Of a DNA stretch of 64,000 nucleotides, positions 28,425 to 45,120 are shown one piece after another; positions within the stretch are counted from its first letter, which is position 1; each line of letters starts with the position of its first letter. Below the pieces are notes generated by a model. The model was given only the letters and a program-made list of their open reading frames with translations. It was not told where the DNA came from and did no database searches. The translations under genes and the position numbers were made by a program. Origin of the DNA: Prorocentrum cordatum (taxonomy: Eukaryota); contig CAUYUJ010000026.1 in assembly GCA_963575745.1 (NCBI GenBank), positions 558,001 to 622,000 of the forward strand, given 5' to 3'.

Positions 28425-28444
28425 CTCATCATCATCATCATCAT

Positions 28445-28495
<51 letters not shown>

Positions 28496-28539
28496 TATCA
28501 TCATCATCCTCCTCCTCCTCCTCCTCCTCCTCCTCCTCG

Positions 28540-28582
<43 letters not shown>

Positions 28583-28634
28583 TACGTTCATAATCGTCGT
28601 CGTCATCATCGTCATCGTCACCATCATCGTCGTT

Positions 28635-28683
<49 letters not shown>

Positions 28684-28840
28684 GCATCAGCATCAGCATC
28701 AGCATCATCATCAACATCATCATCCGCAGCATTATCATCATCATCATCGTCGTCATCATCATCACCTCCGTCACCATCACCATCAGTATCACCTCCACCA
28801 TCATCATCAGCATCATCATCATGATCATCATCACCATCTC
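28425..28840. repeat. (CAT)n microsatellite
   Basis: Direct; source of the poly-H/I/M/D ORFs. Confidence 0.95.
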
Positions 28841-29199
28841 CCTCTTGTTTCACCCGCCACTCCCTCTCCCTCTTATCTTGCCCTCCTTCCTGGTTCCCCC
28901 CCGTCTCCTCTGTCCTCCCCTCGTCGTCCTCCTTCCCGTTGTCCTCCGCTTCCGCCCATCCTCCCCAGTCCCCCTCCTCCTGCTCATACCTTACAAGAAA
29001 GGTAGAAGGAGGAGAGAGACCTACGTTTCTACGTTTCTCGCTATGCAGCGTCTTGTCGTGCGCCCCGCGGGCGCGGAGCGCTCTGCAGCGGCCCTCTAGG
29101 GCCGTGCGGGCACTCAAACAGCGGCCCCGGGAACCCGACCCCGAGGAAAGTAGGGAGCCAGGGACCAATAAAACAGAGAGGAGGGAGAAAGGGGGCCGG

Positions 29200-31110
29200 G
29201 TTTCAGCAAAAATAAAAAGATGAGGGCCCGTCTGGGCCCTCAGCGGGCGCCGCGCTCGCCCGTGCCAGCTCAGGCAGCACGGCGCGCAGCCAGGCCTTCG
29301 GCCTCTTTGTGGGCGGTCGGCCTCTTGTGTGGCGGCTGGGCTCCCTTCGGCGCCTCGCGCTGAGCCCAGCCGCCGTGTCATCGGATGGATGGCCGCCTTC
29401 TCTGCGGCGGCCTCCACCCTTCGGCGCATGGCGCTGTGGAGGCCCGCCAAGCCTCTCTTGGACTTCGGCGGCCCTGCAGCAATCTCCTCGCCTGTCACGC
29501 GAGGCTGGGGCAGGCCTCGCCGTGGCGCACGATGCGCCGCCTCCTTCACTTTGCTTGGGCTCCTCTGAGATGTCGTACGTGCTGAGCACCGCTTCAGATG
29601 TGGCAGGCTCATCACGCCACGCTGCTGAGGACCCTGCTCCTGTCCTCCTTTCAGCGGGCTGGGCTAGTCAAGGTGGTGGTTGCTGTTGGTGGGGTGGAGG
29701 TTCTGGGGTTGATGTCTTCGTGGTGCCTCGCAGCTGAGGGCCCTGCTCCTGTCCTCCTTTCTGCGGGCATGCCATCTGGAGATTGGTTCTGAGGACCCTA
29801 CTCCTGTCCTCCTTTTCAGTGTCTCCATGGCGTGCTGATCGAGCCTGGCTGTTGAGGACCCTGCTCCTGTCCTCCTTTCAGCAGGCACTGTCATGGTTGA
29901 GCCGTGCCGCACTGCTGAGGACCCTGCTCCTGTCCTCCTTTCAGTGGGCTGGTGGAATCGAGGTGGTGGTGGTTGGATGGGTGGTGGTTGCGGGCTGGGT
30001 GATCAGTCGGTGGCGAGTCCCATAGGCTGTAGATGGTCGTATTGAGTGTCTATGGTCAGGTCGTGGGGATAGCGTAATGTTGCTGGGGTTGTGTTGTGGG
30101 TTATGGGCGCACCTGAGAGGCCTCCATGCACCGACTTCAAGTGGGGTTCGTGGCGGCCCCACCTCGTCCCGCTATGGCTAGGGGTCACGGTGCCCTCGGT
30201 GGGGGCGAACCCCAGGCCTGGTGCTTGCTGTTGTCGTCGGTGGGGAATGTCTCTGCTGCCTTCAGCTTCGCCTCGTCGGCGATCGGGTAAGCTCCTCCTT
30301 CGCCATGGGAATGGTGGGGGTGGCGAGCTAGGGCGGACCGCGGGGGCGCGGGTAGTGGCCGTCCTACCCCCCCCCTGCCCCTCACCATCCCCGCTGGCGG
30401 GCGCGGGAAGTACTCGTCCTTCCCCCCCAGCCCTTCGAGCCCGTCTCGAAGTTTGATCCTCACCAAGACAGCGTTGACTTGGCAGGAGTTGTAGGGGGTC
30501 GTGCTGGGTATGATGTCGATGTCGGTCGGTGGTACGCTGACGGCCAATGGGCCGCCCGCTGCCAGCCAGCTGGCGCCATCCATATTGTAGATCTCCAGGA
30601 GCCGCCGCGGTACGCATCAAAACGTGGCGACATGTGCCTGGGGTGTTCCCTCGCATTCGGGGCTTCCCCAGGTCTTGCGTTCTAACAATAGCCAAGATTG
30701 GCGACGCTGCCTGAGGTCTTCCCACGCATTCGGGGCTTCCTCAGGACTTAATAAGCGCACACCGTAATGCCAGTCCAGGGCCAAATAATCATAGTAAACA
30801 ATGCCAATGTTAGGAAAGTCAATAAATCCAGCAGGTGCTCGAGGGGGGGGCACGCTCCGTCGCCATTGAGGGATCGTGCCCACCCGTATGGGCGCTACGG
30901 GTCCCCCCCCCTCGAGATGGCACGCAATCGTTGTCCAGGTCGCATCCGTACCAGTAACCCGTTGGCAACAGGGTATTGGGCCATGCCGTAGGTGCGCTGA
31001 TGCTGACACTTCTGCTGCCAATCTGAAATACTCTGTATACAATATTGTAATGCCAGCTGCCATCAAATCTGTAGCAAGCCGGTGGTCTGCGCCAAATTGC
31101 AGACCAGTGT
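29200..31110 (-). ncRNA. Putative structured RNA region (LINE 3' UTR)
   Basis: Three duplicated stem-loop motif classes with covarying stems, plus other hairpins at 29221-29242, 30838-30916 and ~31083-31106. Strand assumed from the element. Confidence 0.5.
29626..29944. repeat. Repeat-spacer array: five 29-30 bp hairpin repeats (TGAGGACCCTGCTCCTGTCCTCCTTTCAG) with 80/26/33/34-bp variable spacers, in the LINE 3' region
   Basis: Repeats at 29626-29654, 29735-29763, 29790-29819, 29853-29881, 29916-29944; stem GAGGAC/GTCCTC with 9-nt loop. Confidence 0.9.
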
Positions 31111-31190
31111 TCCCTTACGGGGCAAAAGTAGATAATACTGGACGCTTGACTCGACTAGCTGCACCAAATAAGCCGCTGCAGTGCCAATTG

Positions 31191-34100
31191 CTAGCGCCGA
31201 TGGTTGCCCCATGCCCTGTGACAATCATGGCCGATCTGGTCTGTCTCCATGTAGTGATCCAAGGGGGCGTAGAACCTGTGGTAGCAGTCGTCCGTTTCGG
31301 CCCACATTGCCTCTTCGTCAGCAAGCTGCCCCCAGTGGGCTGCGAAGGCGGTAGCCATTGCCTTGCACAGCCTTGATGGATACTCTTTGAGGGGGGCGGT
31401 CCTCCAGCCGCCTTGGCCGTCTCGTCCGTAAGCTCCGGCATGTCCCGCATGTCGGCATAGCTGTCCCCCAGGTACCGCCCTTAGCTCCTGTGCGAGTTCA
31501 CCGAGGTGTGCCGCCATCAGACATGTTGGTTTTCTCGCGTCCTGCCCGAACTGGCACTGGTCTATGTAGTGAAGTTCGACGCCCGTCTGCTCCAGGAGCC
31601 AGAGCGTCTCTGCTCGCTGCCAGCTGCTAGGCGCTTGGGGGCACCATGTGGCTGGGGCGGGATGCTCGAGTACGGCTGAGACGTTGTACTGCAGGCCCGT
31701 GGTGATGAGTAGTAAAGCTGTCCTGTATAGCTCGTTGGCTAGTGCGATCTGTTGATGCTCCGCTTGGCTAGCTGCTTGTATGCCCCAGGGGGCTTCATGT
31801 GTACGTAGTGGTCGAGGTGCCTTCCCCTCGGCAGCATGCCAGCGCGATGAGCACCACGTCTCGCAGGGCGGGCCCGCCACAATACCAAATATTTTGCCCT
31901 GTCGTATCGCTGCGCACCAAAAGTCGACGACGTCTGGCTTCGTCAGGTCTCCTTTGACGGGGTCTATCTGCACGTCGATCGATAGTACTACCAAGTTGCA
32001 TTCCCGAATGTTCATCTCGAAGTGGTACTGGAAATCCTCGATTCGACGTCTGCCCGAGAAAAGGTGCAGCAAGAACATAGCCGTGGTAACCATGGGCCTG
32101 CACGGTGAGAATACGATTGCAGGTGGTGTCGCTGTTTGGACGTCCGCTGCCGCTGGCGGGGCCGGCGAGAGTTGGAGCTGGTGCTGCTCTATGTAGTCGG
32201 CCAGCTTGAGCTGTATGACCTGTTGGGCGGGCACCAGCGCCTTTGTAGCTCCATGCCCCATTGCCTTCCTCGCCGCCACAGCTTCTCGTTCTTCTTCTCG
32301 GCGTTCGGCTGCCTCCTGCAAATCCATTGGGACCTCGATTGCTTGGAGGACCGCCAGGCATTTGGGGCACCTTCTCAGGTGCTTGAGTATGCGGGATCTC
32401 GTTATGAAGTTCTTCCCGCACCCAGGGCAGGTAGTCGAACGGGCAAGCAATTCGGGAAGGTCGTAGCCGATGTGTTCCATGGTGCGATGGCGCTTCCATG
32501 CTCCCCGAGTTTTTAATATCTTGCCACACTCATAGCATATGTAGCCACAGTGCTGTGCGGGCGGCAGCCCCTCGAAGTTGGGCGTGGTCATTCCAAACTC
32601 TTGCGCAAGACGGTGTAGCTGCCTTTGCCAAACTCGATGTCGATATATGTCGTGCTGCCATGCTTTGTACCTGAGCCACGCACGGGTGATCGTGGCTTGT
32701 GCGGCTCGCACGTGCTGTGTGCGTAGCCATCGTAACAATCCCCTGATGTCGCTGCCGATGTCCTCGTCGTCTAGTAGGAAACTTCTTATCCAGTCCAGAT
32801 CTTCGACGATAAGAGCATTCCAGGCCTTCTCATCCTCCCAGAGTTCGTCGATGAGGCGGTGGAGGAAGGGCGTGTCTGCATGCGCCATCCTGGCCAGGTA
32901 CATCAGGCGCCGTCGGCGCAGGTACATGTGGATCGGTACTTCGTCGCACAGCAAGTATATTTCGTCATCCAAGGTATGTGCCTGTCCCGCGCTGTGTCGC
33001 TGTTGTCTTGCGGCGGCCCGCAGACTCGCCATGTGTCTGCTCTGCAGCATCTGCTTCTGCTGTACTGTAAGTGGTCCCCACACTTCGCAGTCGTAGGTCA
33101 GCTTGCTTTGCGCCAGTGCCGTGAGGTACAACAGCTTGGCCTTGAGGTCGATGTGCGGCAGGCGGAAGATGGACTTCTTCAAGGGGCCCTCTGCGGATCT
33201 GTGGTCTATGATGCGTCTCATAAGGTTCGGCCCCTCCCCACCATCACTCGTCACGATATTGCCCAGTGTGAGTCCCTGGGTCGTGACCTCCGCCGTTGAC
33301 ACTTCAGTGCTCGTTGGCGGCTGACCATCCTCGCGCCGCAGCGTGATGGGATTTGTCTTGAAAATCTTCGCCTTGATATGCTGCTTGGCGTGCCCATCGA
33401 TATGCAGCAACGCTTTAGTCTTCTTGGGGTGTAGGTCATGCCCGAAGATCTTGAGTCTCCTTGCAATGATGGACAATATGTCGAAGATGCTGCTCTCGAT
33501 TTTCGTGTTGTCGTTAAGTACGCACAGGAATGTCGCGTCGTCCATGAAGGATACTTCTGGCAGGGTCCCTTCCAGCCCTTGGAGCTGGCCTGACGTGACA
33601 ATGGCTTGTTCGCCCGCTGGTGGTAGTTGTAGTAGGTACCCTCCTGCATGTAGCTCCTGCTCCAGTGGGCCCAGAGCGTGCGCGAAGCTGATGTTGAAGA
33701 TGAGGTCGGCCAGGCCGTTGCCTGGGCGTGTGCCCTTGCGGCTCTCCGCGCAAAGCTCTTCTCCCCGCACTTGGAAGAATGTCGTGTCGTGTGCTTCCTC
33801 TAGCTGGAATCGCAGGTTCTCGTCTACATCGTTGAGTGCTAAGTAGCCTGGAGACGCTATCAGCTGCTGGATGGCCGGCATGAGCCATTCAGGTGGAGCG
33901 CCTCCTGCCATCACCTTTAGGAGCCAAGGCTTCTCCCCTTCCCGTCCCAGCACAAATTCTCGAATAACTGAATAAAAGGCCTGTCGTAGATCCAGCAGGA
34001 TGCCGACTGCGCTGAGACGTCTCCGCCTGCAGATCCTGAAGAACGCTTTGATAGTATGGGTGGAGTACGCGCCTGACTTCTTCGGGATTCCGCCATGCTG

Positions 34101-37100
34101 GGTGACTCTCAGCAGGCTGCTGCAGACCCTCAACGTAGTTGCGCGGAGCCACTTGTGGTAGTGCTTGGCCACGGTGTTGTTGAGGAGGATCGACCTGTAA
34201 TATTCCAGGAGGGCCCTCGTGCCGCTACCCTTGTACAGCTTCACTGCAATACCTGCTTTAAATTGGATCGGTTCTCGGCCTCGCAGTATCGTCTTCAAGA
34301 CGACTGGGTACCAGTGGCGGGCCGTCTCCTCGGGTGCGAGTTTGAGGATGTCGTCCAAATTGCCGTCGGGTCCTCCTGCTCGGCCCTTCTTGCCGTCCGC
34401 AAAGCTCTCCACCAAATCGTTGAGTGTCATGTGCAGGTGCTGGGAGACCTCGTCGGGTGGCGATCTGTGGGTACGGCTGATATTGTAGCGGTCCGCCAGG
34501 TCGTACTTGTCCCTGATGTCGGCTGACTCGATCTTGGCGAAGTGCTGCAGGGTGGCTCTGCTGATCTCGCCCTGGCTGCCCATGACGGTGCCGTCGGGCT
34601 GCTGCATAGTGGGCAGCGCGCTAACATATTTTGGTTTGCGGCCGCCGTGGATCAGAATCTTCTTTGTCAGCTGCCACTCGGTCCTGGCGTCTCTTGCTGT
34701 TCTGCTATCCGCCAATTTGCTGCCAAGTTCGTGAAAGTAATGGTTGCGGTCTGTACTCAGTTGGTGTCTGAACGTGTCCTTGGTGTGGTCGATGAAGAGC
34801 CTGGCCGCGTCATGTGCGATGCCGAGGCAGCCGGTGGCACGACTGAGCTGGCACGCTTCAACAAGGGCTGCCACAGAGCAGTACCAGCTATCTTCCACAC
34901 GGGCATAGACAGGCGCCTCGTGGCAGAGCCTCTTGCGGAAAACTTCAAGAGGTGCTGGGTCCCCGTTGTTCGTGTAGGTCCGCGTGGAGCTCTCAGCGTA
35001 TCTGCGCAGCCTCAATAGGCGCATGCTAGCCTCTGAGATTGTGACGTTGCAAGGGGTAAGCGGGTCCCGTCCGAAATGCTGCTTCGTCTTCTCGACAAGG
35101 AGTCCCGCTGTCTCGTGGTAATGGTCGTTGACGTCTGCCTTCCACGGTGGTAAGCTGATGTTGTTCAGGTCCTGCTTGAATGCGGTGATGCGCTCTGGGT
35201 TCTTGAGTTTGTTAGTATCCAATAACCCGTTCCCCTTCGAACTACGGTGGCGCCCGATGATTTCGCCCACAACTTCAACTAGCACGGGCATGTGGTCTGT
35301 GGTCGTGTCGTAGCCGTTCTGGGCGTAGTTCCTCCTCTGCTTGTTGTGCTCGTTCTTCTTTTTGGCGGTTGGCTTTTGAAAGTCTCTCAAGACAGTGCAA
35401 GCCGCCACGCACTTGAACAGGCAGGGAGCCATGGCGACGTAGTCGATGCGGTTGGAGATCCCGTCCTTGTGGTACGTGTAATCGTCGTTGTTCCCGTAGT
35501 ATGTGTTGACGACGTGCAGGTGGCAGCTGGCGACAGTCTCGTGGAATTCGTGTCCATTCTTGTCTGTCGGCTGATTTGGACCTTTCTGGCCCAACCATTG
35601 AGTGTCCTCTCCGTCCTTGTGGCTTAGCTTGGCGTTCGCGTCGATGAGCAGGATCTCTGGTTTCCACGTGTCACACAGCTCCCTGAAGTGCTCCCACCAG
35701 CCGTTGATGTCCTTGGCCTTCTGGTACGGGGCATGAGCAACGGCGATGACGTGATGGAACAAAGGAGCCTGCACGCGGACAAGGAGAATCCTGGCTGACG
35801 AGTACAGTTTTGTCAGCTGGGACTGCTTGAAGTACAGGTCTTTCCCTTTGAGCCGCCCGTACGGTAACTCGACGTTGAGTAGTAGTGCACATCCCCAGTT
35901 GCCGTCCTGCGCATCGCTCTGGATGTTGATAAAGCCTTGTCCTGTCCATATGGCCTCTCTACAGCGTGTCTCCTGCAGCCCCGCGACGTGTACATGGTGG
36001 TCCAGAAGCTGGGCTCTGACTAGAGCCCCTTTACTGGAGATGTCCAGGTGCAGGTCTGTGGAGGTGAAGTCGCCCACCATGGACTGAGCGTTGTACTGCA
36101 CGATGTTGAGCTTCAGCGTGCCCTTGTTGTAGCTGTCTGCGGTGAGGTCGGGGATGTGGTCTGCGTCAGCCCGCTGGGGCGAGACGTGTTCCTCGAGCCG
36201 TCCATGCCTCCACGGTGGGTACGCATGTAGGTCATTGCCCGCAGGATTAGCCATCCAAGCCCATTCGAGTGTGCTGGTATACTGTACTATATTGACTAGC
36301 TCTTCGGCAGGTGGTGGTGGCGCTGGTTGGAGTGCGGCATATTTTGATAGAATATCTGCTGCTTCATTCCAGGGTGCGTCTCGATGCGCATGAGTGTGCT
36401 CGAAGCTAATGTCCTTTGTGAGCTGTAACTGCTGGAATAATATGCGTGTAAACCTCGCAAGAGGGCGGTTCCTACTCGATCTGATCCGCGATGTTCCAGC
36501 TGCCGCTCCCAAAACCGCGGTGTTGTCTCCGATAATGACGATTTCCTGCTCATCGTCCTCCTGTGTACATGCGATGCCTGCCCAGAGTAGCGCTCCCAAT
36601 TCGGGGCTGGTGCTGGAGGTGATGTTGTTGGCCATCTCCTCGCTGACGGACAGGGCGTGGTTGGAGTACATGTGCCTGTAGTAGGCGATGCCCTGGTCGT
36701 CCTCTCTCAGGTGTACCACTGCCCATGCTGATGTACCCGGTGCTTTGGCATGGTAGGACGCGTCGGTGAAGTAGTAGTGCCGCTTCACAGCCGACAAAGG
36801 TCTCGAGGGAGCAAGGTGCTTCACCGCCAGCCTGGTATGCTCGTGCAGGTCGTGCTCTTCGAGGTCGTAATGCCATGTCAGCTTCTGGATGTGTTGCTGG
36901 AATTGCGTCGGTAGGAACTGTGGGGATCCGATGTTGAGGAAGCGTCGCTGCGTGCTGTTGCTGTCACTGCGCTGGTCGGTTTTGTGCGCTTGCCCGTGTG
37001 TTGCTGGTCTAGTTCTTTGTCGTCGTCTCCTTCTGCGCTCGCAGCGCCGGTAGTCGTCGCTGTACTCGCTGTCAGTGCTGGTGTGTTGGCTAGTGCGTTG

Positions 37101-38861
37101 GTTGTCTCGGGCGTCTTCCGCCGTTGTGCTCCGCCTAGTTGGGATGCGGAAGGGGTACATGGCTGGGGTTGTACGTCGTTGTGGTGCGGAGATGGGTTGT
37201 TGCCGCCCCGTCGGCTGCCCGCTAGCTCCGTGGTAGCTCCTAAACGGCAGCATTGCTCGTCGGGGATGTGAGTCCCTCTGGGGTTGGGGGTGCTGTCTGG
37301 CATTAGTCGTTGCGTCTGGGAGTGGTTGCTCGGTCTCCAAGTGGTCGGTTGGCTTGTAGGGCTTGGTCCCCGTCCGCGTCGTGCTCCTTTCCCGTGGGGA
37401 CGGCGGCTTTTGGCAGCACTTCTCATCGGCGTTCAAGTTGTCCGATCCAGCCCGCACGGCCTGACTGAACAGGAGCTCGTGTGATTGGGCTTGGAGCATG
37501 CTGTCACGTAGTCGATGAGATATGCCGCCATGAGGGTCGGTTGGGTTCGGTGGTGGAAAGATAGGTAGTGCTGGCTCTGCGCGTTGCTCTTGAGGGTCTA
37601 GGTTTGGTTTGGCTGGTGTCGGTGGCGGGAGTGTAGATGAATGCTCGTCGTTGGACCTGGTTGAGCGCCCCAGCACGACATCGCTGTCACGAGAGCAAGG
37701 CATCGGCCACCCTCCCGTCGGAGGCATGCTCTCGCGTCTTCGCACCTGCAAGGGGGAGTCAACCCGCAGCTGCTCGGGGAGAGCAGGTCCGTCCGTCGAC
37801 GGCCTTGCAGAGTGAGGCGACCCCGCGCTGACACGCCAACGCGGGTAGGTCCTGGTCGGTACGTTATGTTGTTTGGACTCGTCAGAGCGAGGAGTCTGCT
37901 CTGCTGATGTGTACCGAGGCGCTGCCCTCCAAGTAGTACGCGACCTCGGACAGGTGCTGCGCTCTCGACTCGGGCACTCGCTGGCGGAGCCCAAGTCCTG
38001 CTCCTCAGGATGTTCCGCTCCAGGAGGCTGAGTGCTATCTGGCAGTGCTTCGTCCTCGCAGATGCTGCTGTCCGCAAGCGCCTCGAAGGGGTTATTGATC
38101 AGCGGCACTCCAAAGTCTGGTCGCATCTCCACCCTGTGCGCCTGTCTTAGTAATCTTTTGCGCCTCGCCACTCTTCTTTCCCTTGCAACAGCTGTGGCGT
38201 CGTTGGGGTGCGGTTCTGCTGCTGTAGGGCTGTAGCTTTTGCTGTCAAGGTATGTGTCCTGTATTTGCTCTAGCTGGTAGGCTTGTATGGGTCCATGCTG
38301 TATCTGTCGATTGTAGTCAGTGCTTGGTTGTGTCGTGGTGCCTGCATTTAATTTGGCTGACGCTGGTGGACTAGCCAGCCCTCTAGGGGTCTTTGTGCTT
38401 GCCGTGTGGTCTGCTTGCGAGCCCAGGTGGCTGGGGTCGGGAGGTTGGCGGGCAAGCCAGGCTCCGTCGTCTGCAAGCGTGGGGTGCTCCTCGAGTACCC
38501 GGCGCTGGGAGACCTCCAGATGTGATGGATCTGGTAGTCTCGACCTGCTGCCTGGGTCCTCCTTCGCATGGCTGTGCTGCCTGGGCTGCGACGCCGCATG
38601 GGCCGCCGCGGCTCCCGCGAAGTGGGATGTCGAACCAGGCGTGGCCAAGGGGTGTCGCCTTGGTCCACGCTGTTGGCACTGCGTCGGACTGCTCGAGTAG
38701 CTCTCCCACTCTTGTTGCAGCCTCACCCTGTCGCGGTGCTGGTTGCTTGTCTGAACCCCGCTGGCAGTGGGGCTCGCGGCCTGAGGGAGTCGCTCAGGTC
38801 CGCGCTTGGAGCGCTCAGACTTGATGTCGCCGTTCTGTGGGTGGTCCCCACCCTTGCCCAC
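31191..38861 (-). CDS. LINE ORF2: low-complexity N-terminus, RNase H, APE endonuclease, reverse transcriptase, 2 C2H2-like zinc fingers, C5-cytosine methyltransferase
   Basis: RNase H YFTDAS..PELGA..IGDN..HTHAH..WNEAAD (~36785-36340); APE QYNAQS..GLQETR..IDANA..RIDY..TDHMP (~36110-35270); RT AGGPDG..YRSI..DLRQAF..GTRPG..FMDD (~34390-33250); CYECGK..H..H and CPGCGK..KH (~32550-32380); DNMT LHLFSG..SID..GPPCETW..EHP..QCQFG..KPT..EYP (~32080-31330). 2556 codons uninterrupted; true start uncertain. Confidence 0.95.
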   Translation of the reverse strand: MGKGGDHPQNGDIKSERSKRGPERLPQAASPTASGVQTSNQHRDRVRLQQEWESYSSSPTQCQQRGPRRHPLATPGSTSHFAGAAAAHAASQPRQHSHAKEDPGSRSRLPDPSHLEVSQRRVLEEHPTLADDGAWLARQPPDPSHLGSQADHTASTKTPRGLASPPASAKLNAGTTTQPSTDYNRQIQHGPIQAYQLEQIQDTYLDSKSYSPTAAEPHPNDATAVARERRVARRKRLLRQAHRVEMRPDFGVPLINNPFEALADSSICEDEALPDSTQPPGAEHPEEQDLGSASECPSRERSTCPRSRTTWRAAPRYTSAEQTPRSDESKQHNVPTRTYPRWRVSAGSPHSARPSTDGPALPEQLRVDSPLQVRRRESMPPTGGWPMPCSRDSDVVLGRSTRSNDEHSSTLPPPTPAKPNLDPQEQRAEPALPIFPPPNPTDPHGGISHRLRDSMLQAQSHELLFSQAVRAGSDNLNADEKCCQKPPSPRERSTTRTGTKPYKPTDHLETEQPLPDATTNARQHPQPQRDSHPRRAMLPFRSYHGASGQPTGRQQPISAPQRRTTPAMYPFRIPTRRSTTAEDARDNQRTSQHTSTDSEYSDDYRRCERRRRRRQRTRPATHGQAHKTDQRSDSNSTQRRFLNIGSPQFLPTQFQQHIQKLTWHYDLEEHDLHEHTRLAVKHLAPSRPLSAVKRHYYFTDASYHAKAPGTSAWAVVHLREDDQGIAYYRHMYSNHALSVSEEMANNITSSTSPELGALLWAGIACTQEDDEQEIVIIGDNTAVLGAAAGTSRIRSSRNRPLARFTRILFQQLQLTKDISFEHTHAHRDAPWNEAADILSKYAALQPAPPPPAEELVNIVQYTSTLEWAWMANPAGNDLHAYPPWRHGRLEEHVSPQRADADHIPDLTADSYNKGTLKLNIVQYNAQSMVGDFTSTDLHLDISSKGALVRAQLLDHHVHVAGLQETRCREAIWTGQGFINIQSDAQDGNWGCALLLNVELPYGRLKGKDLYFKQSQLTKLYSSARILLVRVQAPLFHHVIAVAHAPYQKAKDINGWWEHFRELCDTWKPEILLIDANAKLSHKDGEDTQWLGQKGPNQPTDKNGHEFHETVASCHLHVVNTYYGNNDDYTYHKDGISNRIDYVAMAPCLFKCVAACTVLRDFQKPTAKKKNEHNKQRRNYAQNGYDTTTDHMPVLVEVVGEIIGRHRSSKGNGLLDTNKLKNPERITAFKQDLNNISLPPWKADVNDHYHETAGLLVEKTKQHFGRDPLTPCNVTISEASMRLLRLRRYAESSTRTYTNNGDPAPLEVFRKRLCHEAPVYARVEDSWYCSVAALVEACQLSRATGCLGIAHDAARLFIDHTKDTFRHQLSTDRNHYFHELGSKLADSRTARDARTEWQLTKKILIHGGRKPKYVSALPTMQQPDGTVMGSQGEISRATLQHFAKIESADIRDKYDLADRYNISRTHRSPPDEVSQHLHMTLNDLVESFADGKKGRAGGPDGNLDDILKLAPEETARHWYPVVLKTILRGREPIQFKAGIAVKLYKGSGTRALLEYYRSILLNNTVAKHYHKWLRATTLRVCSSLLRVTQHGGIPKKSGAYSTHTIKAFFRICRRRRLSAVGILLDLRQAFYSVIREFVLGREGEKPWLLKVMAGGAPPEWLMPAIQQLIASPGYLALNDVDENLRFQLEEAHDTTFFQVRGEELCAESRKGTRPGNGLADLIFNISFAHALGPLEQELHAGGYLLQLPPAGEQAIVTSGQLQGLEGTLPEVSFMDDATFLCVLNDNTKIESSIFDILSIIARRLKIFGHDLHPKKTKALLHIDGHAKQHIKAKIFKTNPITLRREDGQPPTSTEVSTAEVTTQGLTLGNIVTSDGGEGPNLMRRIIDHRSAEGPLKKSIFRLPHIDLKAKLLYLTALAQSKLTYDCEVWGPLTVQQKQMLQSRHMASLRAAARQQRHSAGQAHTLDDEIYLLCDEVPIHMYLRRRRLMYLARMAHADTPFLHRLIDELWEDEKAWNALIVEDLDWIRSFLLDDEDIGSDIRGLLRWLRTQHVRAAQATITRAWLRYKAWQHDIYRHRVWQRQLHRLAQEFGMTTPNFEGLPPAQHCGYICYECGKILKTRGAWKRHRTMEHIGYDLPELLARSTTCPGCGKNFITRSRILKHLRRCPKCLAVLQAIEVPMDLQEAAERREEEREAVAARKAMGHGATKALVPAQQVIQLKLADYIEQHQLQLSPAPPAAADVQTATPPAIVFSPCRPMVTTAMFLLHLFSGRRRIEDFQYHFEMNIRECNLVVLSIDVQIDPVKGDLTKPDVVDFWCAAIRQGKIFGIVAGPPCETWCSSRWHAAEGKAPRPLRTHEAPWGIQAASQAEHQQIALANELYRTALLLITTGLQYNVSAVLEHPAPATWCPQAPSSWQRAETLWLLEQTGVELHYIDQCQFGQDARKPTCLMAAHLGELAQELRAVPGGQLCRHAGHAGAYGRDGQGGWRTAPLKEYPSRLCKAMATAFAAHWGQLADEEAMWAETDDCYHRFYAPLDHYMETDQIGHDCHRAWGNHRR

Positions 38862-39181
38862 AGACGCGGCGTCTAGGGAGCTGGTAGTGCAGGTAGTTCG
38901 TCTGCTGCGCCTCTTGAGTCGGGGCTCCCTAGTAGAGCGTTGGTGGTTTGAAGCGGATGCGGCATCCCCCAGGCTCGCATCGGCTTGGACATAGCTATGT
39001 AGTGTGATGGAGGCTAGGTGCGATCGTGTGCGTATGGCCGAAAGCCATGGATGTGGGTCGTTGGGCGTAGGCTCGTCACCGCACGGGTCTCTGAGTCTGG
39101 GCCCGATGTCCCCGATATCTTCTGGTGTAGTTGTCTGGACGCAGGTCTGGGCCAGTTGCCCCCCAGCCTGCGTACTCCGTA

Positions 39182-42100
39182 TCAGTTTTTTGACAGTCGA
39201 CCCCCGTCGAGGTCGCTCTCGCCGCTCTCGATGAATGATGCCACTCTGTCACCTGGGTCCGCGAAGCCATCGTCCGCGTCGCAGATCCTGACCTTTTTCG
39301 GCTGGCTCCTCGCCCTCCTGGGTTCCCTTGGTTGCTTCAAGTTACCTCTGCATGGAGGTGCCGAGCTCGTCCTCTCTGGTGTGCCCAAGTGGAAACGCGG
39401 TGGTGGCAGTCGTGGCTCGTGTGGCTCGGTGGGCGTGATATCCTCAATCGGCATCCGTGGAGGTGTGCTGGGGCAATCCTCCTCGTCGCGGCTGAGGTCG
39501 ATGAACAGCGTCGTCATGGGAGTCTTGGCTGTCTGTGAACGCTGTTGTGGGGTCTTGTGTGGCGTGAGAGGCGTGACGGGCGGAAACAGAATGTGTCTTG
39601 GCGTGGGCTGTTCCGTCGGGATGGGTGAGTCGGCTGGTATCGTTGGTGAGAGTGAGGCGAGGTCTGTCGGGGCTTCGCCCTCCTTCTCCTTGCGCAGGCC
39701 TTGGCGGTTCTTCAAATCTTCGTCCAGCAAGTCAGCGTCGTCGGATTCGCCAATTGGGATGCAATCGCTGCTCGCCCGTACCTCGCGCATCCCTGAGTGC
39801 GAAAAGGAGCCGACCCTGTTGTACTCCTCGATGTGCTGGCGCTGCTGAGGTAGTGGTGGGGGGAGCGGCCACTCTTCGGCGGATGTCCTCGGCACAAAGC
39901 TTTGGTTCTGGAAGCTGAGGTCGTCGCTCGACGAGGGGGTAGGCTCCTCTGGCGTTGGCATAGACGATGTATGGGACCTCTCTCCAAATCCCACCTCGGC
40001 CAGCTCCTCGAGGTACGGCGGCAGTTCTGGATGTGGAAGTTCGTACTGGCTAGGTAGCAGCCGAAGTAAGTCTGCCTCAAGTTGCTCCCTCTGGTACGCG
40101 CCCTCCTGGTCCGCCATGCCTTGGTCGCGCTCGCTCGTGGCCGTGTCTCCCATGAGGTCATCCGTCATGTCGATTAGCAGGTCTTCGTCCACTTGTCCTC
40201 CTGCTCCCCAGGCATCCCGTAGTGCAGTCTGGAGTCCTGCCGTTTGCAAATCATGTGCCCGTTGGAGTTCTTGTAATTGTTGCTGCCTCTGCGCTTCGTT
40301 CATATGATGGTTGTGGGCGTAGTGCTGCGCGATGGCCTGCATCTCCTGCTGGCACTGGTGCTGCAGTGTGCTGTGGTACTGATGAGCCGCTTGGTTCTCC
40401 ATCTCCTGCTGCTGCTGTAGTGCATGGAGTTCGCTTGTGGCTGCTGCTTGTCGCTGCAGTGCCACCTCCTCCATCCTTTGGGCCTTGTCCACCTCCTCCT
40501 GGTGCTCGCCGACGCGCTCCAGATACCTTTCCTGCTCGTGCTGCATCTCGTATGCCTTCGCCTGGATGGCTGCGTGCTCCAGGTTCAGGACGACCCGCAT
40601 CGCTTCGCGCTTGTTGGCTTCTTCCTGATGCTCGTGGGCCATCTGCTGGTAGTTCACTGCGATCCGCAGCTCCTCCTCCTTATAAGCGCTGTGGCGGGCG
40701 CATCTCTCCTGGTACTCCGCCTCCGCCATCTCCTGCACCGCCTTCTCGTTGTGCTCCTGCGCCATCTTGTACCACTGGGCCTCTTGGGTTGCCATCTCTC
40801 TCACAACTTGCTCTTCCTGCCTGGCCTTCTGGACCTGCTGCGTGTAGATGGCTGCTCTTCTCTGGTCTTCCTTGTGCATCTCCTCGCGCAAGGTCTTCTT
40901 TTCCATCTCGATATGCATTTGCAGGTCTGCGAGCATCCCTTTGGCCCTTTCCTCCTGTGTCCTCTGGGTGCCTCTTTGTGCTTCGTATGCTTTTGCTTCC
41001 TCCTCCTCTAGCTTGGCGTTGTGGTGCCGCTTGAGAGCGTTGACCTCCCAAGTGTGCCACTTCTCCTGCTTGGCCAACTGCGCTTCGGTCGTGTGGTACA
41101 TCTTTTGCTCGATGGTCTGCTCGTAGGCCTTCAGTTCGCTTTTGTGCTTGAACTCTGCTTGTGCTAGTAGGTCGCTTTGCTGCTGTTCTTTTTTCTGCTG
41201 CGAATCAAGCCTCTCGGTCAATCTCCTGATGGCGTCTTTGATCTCGTCTGATGCTGCTGGGACTGGTCGGGGCTGCTGGGCTGGGGCTGGCTGAGCTGTG
41301 GCTGGTTGAGCCGTGGCCGGTGCCGCTGGAGCTGCCGCATGGTCGCGCCTTCTCCTTGCGGCCGGGTGTGGCGTGCGTCCTCTGGTGGGATCATGGCTCC
41401 CGTCTTCATCGGACGATTCGTCCTTTACTCCTGCCGCCTTGGCCATTTGATCTCTGGTTTCCCTCATCAGGGTTTTGTAGACCCTGATGGTTCTGGCGGC
41501 CGTCGCCTCCTGGTCCAGCATCTTGCTGAGCCGCTTCTCCATCTCGGCATGCTCCTCCTCCAGCTTTTCCAGCGTGGCCCTGAGCTGCTTCATGCGCTCT
41601 TTGTGGGGCAGGACGAAGGAGATGTTCGCGGCGGTGATCGCCGCTTCCTGCTCGAGGCTGGTTGTGCACAAGCCGGCCAGCCTAGCGCCTGCGATGTTCT
41701 CGGTGAGCCGACCCAGCCTGTGGCACTTGGTCTTGTACCACACGAACCTCATCTCTTCGTCATCTGGAGGTGCGGACCAGCTCTCGTGCTCCATCGCGAC
41801 GGCGAAGGAGACTGGCGTGATGCTGTCCAGGACTGCCTTCTGCTGGGGGCTGTACTGGTAGCTGCCGATGTGGGCTGCGGCAGGCGTGTCGAGCTGGTCC
41901 CTCCTTCTGCGCCTGCCGCTTCTCCTTCTGGCTGAGGCGCTCCTCCAGGGCGCTCTGTGCTTCCAGTGCTGGTCGCTGTCGCTTTGCTGCTGGTGCTTGT
42001 GGGTCTGTGGCTGCTGCTGCTGCTGCTGGTGGCGCTTGTGGGTCTGTGGCTGCTGCTGCTGCTGCTGACTATGCTGCTGCCACTCCCAAGGCCGCCCACC

Positions 42101-42283
42101 AATGGCTCCGTAGTCGCCAGTCCAGTCTGCGCTGCGCTGGCGCTGCGCCTGGGCTGTGGACCCTGCTCCTGTCCACCTTTTCCCAGGGCCGCGCTGAGGC
42201 GCCTCGAGGTGTGTGGTCCCTGCTCCTGACCACCTTTCCCTCGAGGCGCCTCGCTGCTGCTGCTGCTTCCAACTCTTCGCCAT
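39182..42283 (-). CDS. LINE ORF1, long Q/E/A-rich coiled-coil protein
   Basis: Open frame of >1000 codons directly upstream of ORF2 and inside the TSDs; first ATG at 42283 (MAKSWKQ); charged heptad-like composition. Confidence 0.85.
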   Translation of the reverse strand: MAKSWKQQQQRGASRERWSGAGTTHLEAPQRGPGKRWTGAGSTAQAQRQRSADWTGDYGAIGGRPWEWQQHSQQQQQQPQTHKRHQQQQQQPQTHKHQQQSDSDQHWKHRAPWRSASARRRSGRRRRRDQLDTPAAAHIGSYQYSPQQKAVLDSITPVSFAVAMEHESWSAPPDDEEMRFVWYKTKCHRLGRLTENIAGARLAGLCTTSLEQEAAITAANISFVLPHKERMKQLRATLEKLEEEHAEMEKRLSKMLDQEATAARTIRVYKTLMRETRDQMAKAAGVKDESSDEDGSHDPTRGRTPHPAARRRRDHAAAPAAPATAQPATAQPAPAQQPRPVPAASDEIKDAIRRLTERLDSQQKKEQQQSDLLAQAEFKHKSELKAYEQTIEQKMYHTTEAQLAKQEKWHTWEVNALKRHHNAKLEEEEAKAYEAQRGTQRTQEERAKGMLADLQMHIEMEKKTLREEMHKEDQRRAAIYTQQVQKARQEEQVVREMATQEAQWYKMAQEHNEKAVQEMAEAEYQERCARHSAYKEEELRIAVNYQQMAHEHQEEANKREAMRVVLNLEHAAIQAKAYEMQHEQERYLERVGEHQEEVDKAQRMEEVALQRQAAATSELHALQQQQEMENQAAHQYHSTLQHQCQQEMQAIAQHYAHNHHMNEAQRQQQLQELQRAHDLQTAGLQTALRDAWGAGGQVDEDLLIDMTDDLMGDTATSERDQGMADQEGAYQREQLEADLLRLLPSQYELPHPELPPYLEELAEVGFGERSHTSSMPTPEEPTPSSSDDLSFQNQSFVPRTSAEEWPLPPPLPQQRQHIEEYNRVGSFSHSGMREVRASSDCIPIGESDDADLLDEDLKNRQGLRKEKEGEAPTDLASLSPTIPADSPIPTEQPTPRHILFPPVTPLTPHKTPQQRSQTAKTPMTTLFIDLSRDEEDCPSTPPRMPIEDITPTEPHEPRLPPPRFHLGTPERTSSAPPCRGNLKQPREPRRARSQPKKVRICDADDGFADPGDRVASFIESGESDLDGGRLSKN

Positions 42284-42702
42284 GTTGTCGAAGGGCTGTG
42301 CTGAGTGATGATCTGCAAGTAGTCGGGAGGCCTCGACTACCTTCAAGAGTGTCCTGGCGTGGCCTCGCGCTATGCGGGCCCTCCTGTGCCAACTTTCTTC
42401 CTTCTGCCTGGGCGTCTTTCTTTAGCCTAGGCGTCGCGGCCGCGGCGCTTCTCTTCAGCTTTGACTCTTTAATGGCGCCGCGGCGCGCTGGCCCGGGCTG
42501 ACGGGGCTGGCCGAACGAGGGGACGACACGACCCCACGCGGCGGCGGGCCCCTCCTCAGCCCGTGGCTTAGGAGAGAGACCTCCTCCTCCACCTCGTTCC
42601 CCTTATGTTGCGTCCGCATCTATAATCCATTCCTCTCCCTCTCTCCCTCTCTCCCTCTCTCCTCCCCCTCCGGCCTCGCCCTTCCCCTGCCCAGCCTTTT
42701 CC

Positions 42703-42719
42703 AGCCATTTTGGCCCACG
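42703..42719 (+). other. Possible relict dinoflagellate spliced-leader sequence
   Basis: AGCCATTTTGGCcCAcG matches 15 of the last 17 nt of DinoSL (DCCGTAGCCATTTTGGCTCAAG) and follows a pyrimidine tract. Confidence 0.45.
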
Positions 42720-45120
42720 CAGAGCAACCAAAACGGGCGCCGCTCCCACGGCCGCCTCGCGACGCCCCGCCACCGCTCTCCGAGGACCCCAATAGTGCCT
42801 GTCCTGAGCCCATGCGGTGTCTGAGCCCGTTCGGCCGCCGAACAGACCTAGACCTCATCAGATTGACGAAAAGTCAAGGCGGAGGTTCTGGGCCCTCGCC
42901 GGACCCCAGGGCCGTCGGAGAAGGACTCGCGGGATGGATCCCGGGGAAGGCCTTGTCTTCGGACCCGCCGAATTTGGGGCGAATTCGCAAAGTGGGGCGG
43001 AAATCTCTGCCATACTTGTCAAGTCCCTTTGATGCCTTTTGCAGTCCTACTTTGCCCGTCGCTGTTTCGGCCATGCTGTTGAGGAACTATCCTTCCTAGT
43101 TCTCTGAGGTGGACATGTTCGCCCTATGTCATCGGATTGTTTGCGTGCGTGTCCGACGCAGTTCGAAATCCGGAAGTCACCCCAAGCTCGGTGGATCCGA
43201 AGTCAGGACCCAGGGGCCTTCTTCGCTGGGCCCTAGGACCGTCAAAAAGCGACTCGCGGGATCGAAAGCCGGTCGTAGGGAAGGAATCTTAGACCTCTGT
43301 GGTTATGATGTTCCAACCTGCTTTAGGCTGGACCACCAGCAACAATTTGCGCCAAGAAATACCGAACATTGAAGGTTCTCGCGTGTCGGACCCTGAGAGG
43401 CGATGCTCGTCAGACACTGTGGCGATGTGGATCTGGGTGCTCGAAATTATTTCTGGGATGTCCTTGAGAACGATGAGAGCAACTGTTGCTCCCATCGTAG
43501 AGTCTGGGTTAGCGTTTAGGGTTGTCGCAGCCGCATTAGCATAACAAACGGTTGCAGCGAAAACGCCATGTCCCGCTAGACTCTAGACCCAGCCGCTAAT
43601 TCTAGACCCAGCCGCATTCCGCTAAACCCCAGAGTTGTGTTACACAACTCTGGGGGTCCATGCTGCGGGAGAGCTCACGGGGTCAGAGCTCTGGCAGCTA
43701 TGGCCGTCGAGCGGCCCAGGACCCAGACCCTGCGGCGGCAGAGCGGGCTCGGATCCCGCGACCTCCTCGGAGGCCCGAGCCTCAAGCAGTAGCGAAGTGT
43801 CTTGGCGTGCCTATAAGCCCATCAAACAATGTTCTAAGAACCTGTTGTGGTTTCTACGACATGTTCTTTAGAACATCTCTGGCTGGGACTGTTTTGTTGT
43901 AGTACATCGGGGTTATATTCTAAGAACATCGTTTCCGTTCTTCGAACGCTTTGGGGTTCTAAGACCATGTCGTGGTAGCCCTATAGGAATGCCGGGACGG
44001 TCGGTCCCTGCTCAAGGGCCCGCTCGGCTTTTTTGCTCGGCGGCCGGGCGGGCCTAGACGCCGAACGGGCTCAGAATCATTCACACCAGGCGTTTTTCGA
44101 TTCAAAGTTTGAGCATAGTTCTTGTTCTCATTATGAGCAGGGTTCGCTGTCGGCGTCGCCGCGGTCGTTGCCCAATTGAGACAGAAGGCCGCCTGCCCAA
44201 CAGCGGCCGCTATCTGTTTTGGACAACATGTATTATTACGCATCGTGCCCATCTTTTCCGTACTCCCCTCGGGCGTCCAAACAGGACCCTCACGGATCGA
44301 TCCGGCCCGAAAAATGCCGCAGTAAGATTTGGTCCCGGGCTTTGGTCGTGATTGGCCATCATGTTGAATGTTTTTTCTACGCCGGATCTCACGGAGGCTT
44401 ACAAAATCATCGCAACCATCATTTTGCGAGTTCGGAGCGGATCTCTCGGGTTGACGCTGGGCCTGCTGCCTCCCCGGCTGGGGCCGGCGCCGAAGGCGCC
44501 GCCAGAGGGGGCCCAGCGCCGACCCACGAAAGCTGCACGGACCTCCGAAGGTTTCTGCTGGTGCCGCTCTCGTTCTTCTGGAGGCCCAGGCTTGCGCGGA
44601 TCTTCCGTGTTCTTTTCGGGAACATGGACCCCGGGGGGATCCAGACCTCTTCTTTGGGACTGGCTCTTCATCCCGCTTCGTTTTTTCGCGCTCCCGGGGC
44701 CCAGCGAGAGCGCCCAGAGGCCGAACATTTGAAAAACGGTACCGTCCGCCTTGGTTTTGTCACGACGCGAGGAGGTTTGGGAGATGAAGGGAAAGACGAA
44801 CTTATTGAATGCGAAATTCGTGGATCATCCCCGGGAATCAGCGACGGTCCGCATGGACCATGACCAAGATCGGTGCCGACACGATCCCGCGACATCTTCG
44901 TCAGGGCAATCGTGCTTCTTCCCCAGACCCCCGATGCCATGCTTATTGAAAAGTGGACACCCACAGGTCTCGACCCATTCATCCTGGGTCGTTGTCGACG
45001 GCCCCAGGGCTCGGCGAGGGCCCCCCGAGGACGAGAATCGCCAAAAGCCTCCCGTCGTGCTCGCCTTGCGACGCGAGGGGGCCACCTGTGGTCGTGCTTC
45101 GGCCCTCGAGGAGGGCAGCC

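What the first reader, a model, noticed from the sequence alone, without database searches (positions are those of the whole stretch)
42156..42239. Same hairpin occurs twice at the LINE 5' end with compensatory stem changes
Seen: GTGGAC-cctgctcct-GTCCAC-ctttt (42156-42181) and GTGGTC-cctgctcct-GACCAC-cttt (42213-42237), 57 bp apart at the start of ORF1. Relative to the 3' array (GAGGAC/GTCCTC), two stem positions change on both arms at once, while the 9-nt loop and the trailing CTTT are unchanged, 12 kb away. Double compensatory change is the classic signature of a selected RNA or ssDNA structure. Inference: a motif at both ends of the transcript could bridge or circularise the RNP, mark full-length RNA for cis-preference, or recruit the methyltransferase to the element's own ends. 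The folding strand is ambiguous; some G-U pairs in the array fit the + (antisense) strand.
Basis: partly seen in the sequence, partly recalled or inferred. Interest (0 to 1): 0.8.

Follow-up and report, generated by a model that had tools for sequence, protein, structure and literature searches.

The report
Conserved two-tier hairpin in dinoflagellate LINE
A short DNA/RNA hairpin with a fixed loop and freely co-varying stems is repeated just after the start of the first gene of a jumping gene (LINE) and again in an array beyond its second gene, which looks like a recognition tag for the element's own machinery, though this is untested.

Summary
The window holds exactly seven copies of a 6-bp stem with a 9-nt loop (CCTGCTCCT on +). 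Two lie 31-144 nt after the ORF1 ATG of a minus-strand LINE-like element. Five lie in an array about 1.2 kb past the ORF2 stop.

- **Conservation:** The 21-nt hairpin plus a 5' AAAG are 76-100% identical between copies, while the flanks are near random. All seven synonymous sites are identical in all seven copies, so the peptide repeat does not explain the conservation.
- **Outer stem:** Each copy sits on a second, outer stem whose sequence differs between copies but still pairs. Overall 90.5% of cells pair, against 72% in shuffles (0 of 500 shuffles reach it).
- **Relatives:** Two peptide fragments from another assembly carry the 5' repeat (three units) and the 3' array. A distant Prorocentrum cordatum ORF1 homologue lacks the repeat.

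**Best reading (confidence 0.4):** a modular cis-acting RNA stem-loop bound by an element protein.

**Rivals:** palindromic repeats kept paired by template-switch mutation, a role on the antisense or cDNA strand, or a DNA binding site.

**Not resolved:** the folding strand, the element's 3' end, transcription, and the claimed methyltransferase. No DNA relatives were reachable.

The parts
42196..42252 (.). f2 unit. The inner hairpin 42213-42233 (GTGGTC/GACCAC, loop CCTGCTCCT on +) sits on a 14-bp perfect outer stem (42196-42209 with 42239-52). The unit starts 31 nt after the ORF1 ATG.
   Evidence: (RNA -48.4 kcal/mol, z -6.7, 0 of 200 shuffles as good)
42139..42195 (.). f1 unit. The inner hairpin 42156-42176 (GTGGAC/GTCCAC) sits on the outer stem CCTGGG/CCCAGG (42148-53 with 42182-87) plus further imperfect pairs.
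   Evidence: flank-shuffle p 0.016 on the minus strand
29906..29949 (.). a5 unit of the array. Inner hairpin 29917-29937; outer stem (sense) GCC-CACUG / CAGUG-c-GGC.
29843..29886 (.). a4 unit. Inner hairpin 29854-29874; outer stem GCCU-GCUG / CAGC-c-AGGC.
29771..29831 (.). a3 unit. Inner hairpin 29791-29811 with a loop G>A change (on +); a different outer stem, UGGAGA/UCUCCA.
   Evidence: z -2.7; p 0.006
29725..29768 (.). a2 unit. Inner hairpin 29736-29756 with one G-T (on +) or A-C (on -) pair; outer stem CGCAG/CUGCG, compensated relative to a1.
29616..29659 (.). a1 unit. Inner hairpin 29627-29647; outer stem GCC-CGCUG / CAGCG-u-GGC.
39182..42283 (-). ORF1 (1033 aa from the ATG at 42283). It matches no Pfam family. 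Its N-terminus holds the two 19-aa units that encode f2 and f1.
31191..39248 (-). ORF2 (2685 aa open frame). It has weak RNase H-like, endonuclease (EEP) and RT matches, two C2H2 fingers, and an unassigned C-terminal 336 aa.
30344..30428 (.). H3: two tandem hairpins 55 nt apart, GGGUAG/CUACCC and GGGAAG/CUUCCC (sense), differing by one compensated pair.
30635..30749 (.). H2: two tandem hairpins 73 nt apart, CCUGGGG/CCCCAGG and CCUGAGG/CCUCAGG, differing by one compensated pair.

Best explanation
H1 is a modular cis-acting stem-loop of this LINE family, acting most likely in the sense RNA. Each unit of about 45-60 nt has four parts:
- a basal stem of free sequence
- a purine internal loop (5' AAAG / 3' AG)
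- a 6-bp apical stem
- a fixed 9-nt loop (AGGAGCAGG in the sense RNA)

I propose that an element-encoded protein (ORF1p or ORF2p) recognises the fixed unpaired bases presented by the stems. The five-unit array after ORF2 and the two or three units just after the ORF1 start codon would then mark the element's own RNA, for packaging or template choice and possibly for feedback on ORF1 translation.

Shown here: nucleotide-level conservation of the core, covariation in both stems, the presence of both sets in a diverged relative, and in-frame tolerance of the units inside ORF1.

Inferred, not shown: that RNA rather than DNA is the active form, that the sense strand is the folding strand, that a protein binds it, and that it has any role in retrotransposition.
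For: 1. Core versus flank. The 21-nt hairpin is 16-21 of 21 identical in all 21 pairs of copies. The distal flanks are 2-19 of 25 and 4-17 of 28 identical, near random between the 5' and 3' sets. The 59-nt array units are only 61-85% identical even with the core included.

2. Not the peptide. All 7 degenerate codon positions of R-W-x-G-A-G-x-x are identical in all 7 copies, although codon use in ORF1+ORF2 is not strongly biased (each codon used at about 0.13-0.29). The array spacings of 55 and 109 nt break the reading frame.

3. Covariation on alignment A1. 90.5% of cells pair against 72.2% in shuffles (0 of 500 reach it). 8 of 12 pairs change on both sides (0 of 500). Slid controls pair at 30-49%. 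RNAalifold independently gives the same two-tier structure.

4. The outer stem is present in 7 of 7 minimum-free-energy folds. Shuffling the flanks gives minus-strand p = 0.174, 0.008, 0.006, 0.014, 0.036, 0.016 and <0.001.

5. The unpaired bases are fixed. The loop is invariant in 6 of 7 copies and the 5' AAAG in 7 of 7.

6. Relatives.
- P0015 (63% identical N-terminus) has three units: RWSGAGTM, RWPGAGST and RWPGAGAT. The last implies a C-G pair at stem position 5.
- P0024 carries array units a4 to a1 in the same order.

7. Known analogues exist. Stringent-type LINE ORF2 proteins recognise a 3' stem-loop in two parts, stem generally and loop specifically (PMC4176376, abstract read). R2 protein binds RNA motifs at both the 5' and 3' ends (PMC4838377, passages read).
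Against: - Only one genomic copy could be studied at the DNA level. The two relatives are peptides, so their base pairs are inferred from codons.
- Single-hairpin z-scores are unremarkable (-0.5 to -1.7 for the 38-41-nt cores). Only f2 (-6.7) and a3 (-2.7) stand out at 76-78 nt.
- The strand is undecided. Energies and flank-shuffle p values are similar on both strands. Two variants give G-U on the antisense strand (a2 in the window; P0024 unit a3, inferred). One variant gives G-U on the sense strand (P0015 unit 1, inferred).
- The structure used was derived from the same seven sequences, which favours it.
- The element's 3' end was not located, so the array may not belong to the LINE transcript.
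- A distant ORF1 homologue (Prorocentrum cordatum, P0005) lacks the 5' units, so they are not essential to the wider family.
- The window as a whole has about 1.8 times more short perfect inverted repeats than shuffles (92 against a mean of 50.8 in 10 shuffles). Hairpin-forming repeats are therefore common here for reasons that need not be functional.
- No RNA-binding domain was identified in ORF1.
Confidence: 0.4

Rival explanations
1. A by-product with no function. The units are palindromic minisatellite repeats. Their arms are kept complementary by replication template-switch mutation, which copies one arm from the other, and they expand by slippage. The apparent compensatory changes are then single mutational events rather than selection.
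For: - Template switching can fix base pairing and produce multi-base compensatory changes in one event (PMC8794818, abstract and introduction read).
- The same pattern of tandem hairpin duplicates differing by one compensated pair occurs in two unrelated hairpin families nearby, H2 and H3.
- The window has an overall excess of short perfect inverted repeats (92 against 50.8).
- Unit number varies: 2 in the window against 3 in P0015.
Against: Template switching does not preserve unpaired bases. Yet the 9-nt loop and the AAAG are fixed, while flanks of the same units are 30-70% identical within the array and random between the 5' and 3' sets. The core also survives inside a coding region with no synonymous change.
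Confidence: 0.25
2. The structure acts on the + strand, antisense to the LINE. It could act as a hairpin in first-strand cDNA, for example helping second-strand priming or template jumps at the 5' end. It could instead act in an antisense transcript, where each unit reads pyrimidine tract + CTTTCAG, which resembles a splice acceptor or the T-rich core promoter motif.
For: - The a2 variant GAGGGC/GTCCTC is a G-T wobble on + but an A-C mismatch on -. The Ser>Pro change in unit a3 of P0024 implies the same (inferred).
- The + strand folds as well as the - strand as RNA and as DNA.
- Six of seven units are followed on + by a Y-rich run ending in AG.
- A relict spliced leader on + lies about 450 nt downstream of the 5' units.
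Against: - One inferred variant (Thr>Met in P0015) favours the sense strand instead.
- The AG is followed by C or T in the array, and it is missing in a2.
- Five tandem acceptors have no obvious use.
- A bare 6-bp DNA hairpin is marginal (-3.5 to -3.8 kcal/mol).
Confidence: 0.15
3. It is a double-stranded DNA site. The inverted repeat GWGGWC-N9-GWCCWC would be bound by a dimeric factor, for example as a promoter or enhancer monomer like the 5' monomers of mouse L1, or by the ORF2 C2H2 fingers.
For: - Tandem units of variable number sit at the element's 5' end.
- The spacer sequence is fixed.
- ORF2 carries C2H2 fingers.
Against: - A dimer that tolerates A or T at two positions would not require the two half-sites to match, yet they match in 13 of 14 cells at the two variable pairs.
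- The outer stems covary with unrelated sequences in every copy. A DNA site model does not predict this.
Confidence: 0.1
4. Conservation reflects only a peptide repeat, [KE]R[WR][ST]GAG[ST][ST], needed by ORF1p.
For: - The 57-nt units are in frame, and P0015 keeps R-W-x-G-A-G in three units.
- Three array units spaced 63 nt apart share one open frame.
Against: - No synonymous variation occurs at 7 sites in 7 copies.
- The array changes frame twice and contains stop codons.
- The residue changes that do occur (W/R with T/S; T/S with S/T) are exactly those that keep pairing.
- A distant homologue lacks the repeat.
Confidence: 0.03

Closest known systems
3' tail stem-loop of stringent-type LINEs (eel UnaL2, zebrafish ZfL2) recognised by ORF2p
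   Same: A short hairpin in the LINE RNA downstream of ORF2, where the stem can vary while the loop and internal-loop bases matter. Recognition is bipartite, stem generally and loop specifically (PMC4176376 abstract; PMC1636434 seen in the search listing only).
   Different: Those are single hairpins at the very 3' end, next to the tail repeats, and are shared with partner SINEs. Here there are five tandem units at an undetermined distance from the 3' end, plus two or three units inside the ORF1 coding region. No partner SINE or binding data exist.
R2 5' and 3' protein-binding-motif (PBM) RNAs
   Same: Structured RNA segments near both ends of a non-LTR element RNA each bind the element's protein and assign it a role in integration (PMC4838377 passages).
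   Different: The two R2 PBMs are different, larger structures, and R2 has a restriction-like endonuclease. Here the same small motif is used at both places, and the endonuclease match is of the EEP/APE type.
Multi-copy regulatory or packaging hairpins (iron-responsive elements; retroviral psi stem-loops reaching into gag)
   Same: A small stem-loop with a fixed loop and covarying stem is used in one or a few copies at a 5' site and several copies at a 3' site (IRE). Alternatively, purine-rich loops overlap the start of the first ORF (psi). Both comparisons are recalled from general knowledge and were not checked in a call.
   Different: There is no sequence or Rfam match. The binding protein is unknown and the host is a LINE.
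Quasi-palindromes maintained by template-switch mutation
   Same: Short inverted repeats are kept perfect by one-step changes to both arms (PMC8794818).
   Different: That mechanism does not explain the invariant loop and internal-loop bases.

Membership tests
Non-LTR retrotransposon (LINE), APE type: the host element | ORF2 with an EEP/APE endonuclease followed by a reverse transcriptase | tested here: inconclusive
   Exo_endo_phos_2 E 0.0018 (18.6 bits, cut-off 27.4) and RVT_1 E 0.00075 (19.7 bits, cut-off 29.6). They are in the right order but below Pfam gathering scores. No PDB sequence match. The FMDD and GLQETR motifs are seen by eye.
Non-LTR retrotransposon (LINE), APE type: the host element | Two same-strand ORFs, multiple diverged copies, a 3' tail and target-site duplication | tested here: inconclusive
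   Two ORFs overlap by 67 nt on the minus strand. Diverged ORF1 fragments occur elsewhere (19 representatives with E<=0.001). The tail and target-site duplication were not found, and no other copy lies in the window.
Stringent-type LINE 3' tail stem-loop | Hairpin at the extreme 3' end, next to the tail repeats | tested here: inconclusive
   The array starts about 1.24 kb after the ORF2 stop. The 3' end of the element could not be defined with one copy.
Stringent-type LINE 3' tail stem-loop | Bound by the cognate ORF2p and required for retrotransposition | not testable with these tools
   Needs binding and retrotransposition assays.
R2-type 5'/3' PBM system | Restriction-like endonuclease and rDNA site specificity | tested here: not met
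   The endonuclease match is EEP type and lies N-terminal to the RT. There is no rDNA context.
SymbioLINE-Dnmt (de Mendoza et al. 2018) | C5-DNMT domain encoded in ORF1 upstream of the RT ORF | tested here: not met
   The paper's passages state that the DNMT is in ORF1. Here ORF1 matches no Pfam family. The ORF2 C-terminus has no Pfam or PDB match and only a 0.87 Atlas lead to PF00145.
Any Rfam family | Covariance-model match at the hairpins | tested here: not met
   cmscan of 28000-43500 at E<=1 gave 4 weak matches, none at the hairpins.
Selected RNA structure (general criterion) | Base pairs kept through two-sided changes more often than controls | tested here: met
   8 of 12 pairs change on both sides, 0 of 500 shuffles reach the observed values, and slid controls pair at 30-49% against 90.5%. 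Caveats: only 7 related sequences, and the structure was derived from them.

The most novel reading that the evidence does not exclude
A LINE uses one small, self-similar RNA hairpin module as an address label at two places: several copies in its 3' region and two or three copies written into the first 50 codons of ORF1. The same element protein could then load on both ends of its own mRNA. That would couple ORF1 translation control, cis-preference and template choice through a single motif. The module would spread and change copy number within the element like a minisatellite while staying in frame.
Probability: 0.2. Interest if true: 0.7.

Novelty: new variant of a known kind. Interest (0 to 1): 0.5.

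Why it matters
How LINE proteins pick their own RNA (cis-preference, the stringent-type versus relaxed-type distinction) is known for only a few animal elements, and nothing comparable is described for dinoflagellate LINEs. My search for dinoflagellate + non-LTR + hairpin + retrotransposon listed nothing on this, and the 2018 DNMT-retrotransposon paper has no occurrence of 'hairpin'.

A compact motif with fixed loops and swappable stems gives a directly testable handle through binding assays and stem-swap or loop mutants. It also gives a search model for finding autonomous and parasitic partners in these very large genomes. The case is also useful for asking whether compensatory changes in repeats reflect selection or template-switch mutation.

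Tried and rejected
**Sources that gave no access**
- The whole genome is not held. Earlier findings were not open.
- Sequencing runs: 14 rows from 10 studies hold part of the stretch, 7 of them with 0.33-0.56 of the sampled words. No RNA holder was listed. There is therefore no read-level evidence on copies, boundaries or expression.

**DNA relatives**
- A 15-base pattern in viral contigs gave only chance matches, which I used as a control.
- A 19-base pattern gave 0 matches in viral contigs. It gave 8 matches in metagenome contigs and 19 in prokaryote genome contigs. All 27 are unrelated, most being a conserved bacterial coding motif.
- ORF1 against viral contigs found nothing.

**Protein searches**
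- The ORF1 word-index search found nothing.
- The exhaustive search found 19 fragments.
- The N-terminal query found only P0015, and the array-frame query found only P0024.

**Model and family scans**
- Covariance model R1 found only its seven training copies in the window, the next best hit having E 0.69. Pattern-selected control loci scored at most 30 bits, against 43-74 bits for the true copies.
- Rfam gave nothing at the hairpins.

**ORF2 C-terminus as a methyltransferase**
- No Pfam match and no PDB match. The AlphaFold single-sequence model had pLDDT 38 and was unusable, so no fold search was run.

**Ideas rejected**
- K-turn reading of the AAAG/AG internal loop: rejected by eye because the G-A/A-G order does not fit. 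The K-turn consensus was recalled, not checked.
- Loop-loop kissing or 5'-3' RNA pairing: rejected because all copies have the same sense, and the complement of the loop occurs on the sense strand only at 5873-5881, outside the element.

Full report
**1. What is there**

The region 31191-42421 carries two long minus-strand open frames.
- ORF1 runs from the ATG at 42283 to the stop at 39182 (1033 aa) and matches no Pfam family.
- ORF2 (2685 aa) has C2H2 fingers above the Pfam cut-off. When scanned in pieces it gives weak, correctly ordered matches to an RNase H-like domain, an EEP endonuclease and RVT_1, all below the gathering scores.
- The RT/endonuclease part has no PDB sequence match.
- I accept 'LINE-like element' on architecture, while noting that the domain evidence is weak.
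- The window contains no second copy of either ORF.

**2. The observation**

The 3' set has five units at 29627-29937.

An exhaustive scan of both strands of the window looked for a loop within two mismatches of CCTGCTCCT flanked by six Watson-Crick pairs. It found only these copies. Six have 6/6 pairs, and the copy at 29736 has five pairs plus one G-T.

The 9-mer itself occurs 19 times against 1.63 expected, but 13 of the 19 are unrelated, mostly in CCT microsatellites.

As chance controls, none of 120 loop+CTTT matches in viral contigs has a complete stem. The same holds for all 27 matches of a 19-base pattern in metagenome and prokaryote contigs.

**3. The conservation is nucleotide-level, not peptide-level**

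Across all 21 pairs of copies the 21-nt hairpin is 16-21/21 identical and the five bases before it 4-5/5. The distal flanks are 2-19/25 and 4-17/28 identical, and near random between the 5' and 3' sets.

The seven degenerate codon positions of the R-W-x-G-A-G-x-x reading are identical in all seven copies. Codon use in the two ORFs is only mildly biased, with the codons concerned used at about 0.13-0.29 each.

The array cannot be one reading frame. Its spacings are 109, 55, 63 and 63 nt, and stop codons interrupt it.

By my own hand calculation, two random substitutions in 21 nt hit one base pair and restore Watson-Crick pairing with probability about 6/210 x 1/3, roughly 0.01. This happened twice independently: array versus f1, and f1 versus f2.

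**4. More structure than was reported**

In every copy the 6-bp hairpin caps a second helix. The two helices are separated by a purine internal loop (5' AAAG, 3' AG/AA/ACA).

The outer helix differs in sequence between copies but still pairs:

| Unit | Outer helix (sense) |
|---|---|
| a1 | GCC-CGCUG / CAGCG-u-GGC |
| a2 | CGCAG / CUGCG |
| a5 | CACUG / CAGUG |
| a4 | GCCU-GCUG / CAGC-c-AGGC |
| a3 | UGGAGA / UCUCCA |
| f1 | CCUGGG / CCCAGG, plus more pairs |
| f2 | perfect 14-bp stem |

f2 folds at -48.4 kcal/mol with z -6.7.

On alignment A1, 90.5% of cells pair against 72.2% in shuffles (0/500). Eight of 12 pairs change on both sides (0/500), and slid controls pair at 30-49%.

I also shuffled only the flanks while forcing the inner hairpin to form. 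On the minus strand this gives p = 0.174, 0.008, 0.006, 0.014, 0.036, 0.016 and <0.001. On the plus strand it gives 0.034, 0.022, 0.005, 0.154, 0.069, 0.112 and <0.001.

Caveats: there are only seven related sequences, the structure was derived from them, and the small cores alone have ordinary z-scores.

**5. Strand**

RNA and DNA folds recover the same two-tier shape on both strands. The a2 variant is a G-U pair on + and an A-C mismatch on -. The peptide relatives add one inferred case for each strand. The strand remains undecided.

**6. Relatives**

No DNA relative could be reached. An exhaustive protein search with ORF1 found 19 representatives. The close ones are short fragments labelled by their source as a Pyramimonas sp. 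data set. The distant ones are Prorocentrum cordatum gene models.

*P0015* matches the ORF1 N-terminus and has three units (RWSGAGTM, RWPGAGST, RWPGAGAT).
- Read in the same frame, the stem-5 pair would be U-A in the first unit, a C-U mismatch in the second and C-G in the third.
- That would be a third pair type at this position. It is inferred from residues only.

*P0024* reproduces array units a4-a3-a2-a1 in order.
- a4 and a1 are unchanged.
- a3 has one arm change.
- a2 has a restored arm and a changed last loop base.

Both sets therefore exist together in at least one other data set and are diverging slowly.

*P0005*, the P. cordatum homologue, shares the segment before the ATG (E 1e-6) and the core domain (47% identity). 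It has no RW.GAG unit between them. The 5' units are thus a lineage-specific, in-frame, copy-number-variable insertion.

**7. Surroundings**

The stretch between ORF2 and the array is full of hairpins.
- It holds two further tandem families that each differ by one compensated pair: H2 at 30635-30749 and H3 at 30344-30428.
- It also holds a large hairpin at 30838-30916.

The whole window has 92 perfect short-loop inverted repeats of 7 bp or more, against a mean of 50.8 in 10 dinucleotide shuffles.

A 12-base exact match to the dinoflagellate spliced leader lies on the + strand at 42703-42714. This fits a dinoflagellate origin, marks a + strand retrogene, and bounds the LINE 5' end between 42421 and about 42700. 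The 3' end of the LINE could not be defined.

**8. Explanation**

The pattern is fixed unpaired bases, freely covarying stems, several tandem copies, and survival inside a coding region without synonymous change. This is what a protein-recognised nucleic-acid hairpin looks like.

The closest known systems are the 3' stem-loops that stringent-type LINE ORF2 proteins recognise in two parts (PMC4176376 abstract) and the 5' and 3' protein-binding RNAs of R2 (PMC4838377 passages).

I therefore favour a cis-acting sense-RNA module bound by an element protein (confidence 0.4).

The main rival is neutral maintenance of palindromic repeats by template-switch mutation (PMC8794818).
- For it: H2, H3 and the window-wide excess of inverted repeats.
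- Against it: it does not explain the fixed loop.

Roles on the antisense or cDNA strand, or as duplex DNA sites, remain open. The peptide-only reading is nearly excluded.

**9.

- Bridging or circularisation by direct pairing is excluded, because all copies have the same sense. Bridging through a multimeric protein is possible but untested.
- Cis-preference marking is my preferred reading, but it is inferred.
- Recruitment of a methyltransferase has no basis yet, because the ORF2 C-terminal 336 aa could not be assigned. The published SymbioLINE-Dnmt architecture puts the DNMT in ORF1, which is not the case here.

**10. Novelty and score**

I found no description of such a motif in dinoflagellate LINEs in the searches I ran.

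It is a new variant of a known kind, the LINE cis-acting stem-loop. It is unusual in being multi-copy and in being duplicated into the ORF1 coding start.

The interest score is moderate at 0.5. The structural signal is good, but it rests on one genomic copy and two peptide fragments, and the function is inferred.

Noticed in passing
window 42703-42714 (+): AGCCATTTTGGC is an exact 12-base match to the dinoflagellate spliced leader as printed in PMC5585692. It is the only exact 11-mer match in the window (about 0.03 expected by my own estimate). It is probably a relict leader marking a + strand retrogene lying head-to-head with the LINE 5' end.
   Followed up: partly
window 30344-30428, 30635-30749 and 30838-30916: Between ORF2 and the array lie two more tandem hairpin pairs, each differing by one compensated base pair (GGGUAG/CUACCC vs GGGAAG/CUUCCC; CCUGGGG/CCCCAGG vs CCUGAGG/CCUCAGG). 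There is also a large G/C-run hairpin (-52.9 kcal/mol, z -2.6).
   Followed up: partly
window 42302-42400 (-), upstream of the ORF1 ATG: The in-frame segment EESWHRRARIARGHARTLLKVVEASRLLADHHS has no ATG before it. It is nevertheless 55% identical (E 1e-6) to the N-terminus of a Prorocentrum cordatum ORF1 homologue. It may be a conserved 5' leader or evidence of a non-AUG or upstream start.
   Followed up: partly
whole window: Perfect inverted repeats with a stem of 7 bp or more and a 3-12-nt loop number 92, against a mean of 50.8 (range 38-66) in 10 dinucleotide shuffles. This is a general excess of short hairpin-forming repeats.
   Followed up: partly
proteins P0003-P0010, P0015, P0024 vs P0005, P0018: The closest relatives of this element (63-93% identity) carry a source label of a green alga (a Pyramimonas sp. 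data set in EukProt). The only named dinoflagellate hits (Prorocentrum cordatum) are distant at 35-44%. The label and the spliced-leader relict in the window disagree, so that data set may be mixed.
   Followed up: no
window 31194-32201 (-), ORF2 C-terminal 336 aa: This domain has no Pfam or PDB match. The motifs FSG and GPPCETW look like C5-methyltransferase motifs I and IV (recalled, not tested). The nearest Atlas cluster with a Pfam family is DNA_methylase at only 0.87.
   Followed up: partly
window about 28.3-28.9 kb (-) and 10.4-10.8, 45.6-48.3 kb (+): There are long trinucleotide microsatellites: GAT/GAC/GAG-rich downstream of the array, and CCT-rich elsewhere. The CCT-rich ones contain the 9-mer CCTGCTCCT by chance, without stems. 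A 461-aa open frame (28278-29663, -) runs from array unit a1 through the acidic repeat and matches no Pfam family.
   Followed up: partly
L076 (viral contig set), 3001-3110: A giant-virus bin contig carries three 45-nt tandem units containing the same 9-mer but no stem. It is unrelated to the finding.
   Followed up: no
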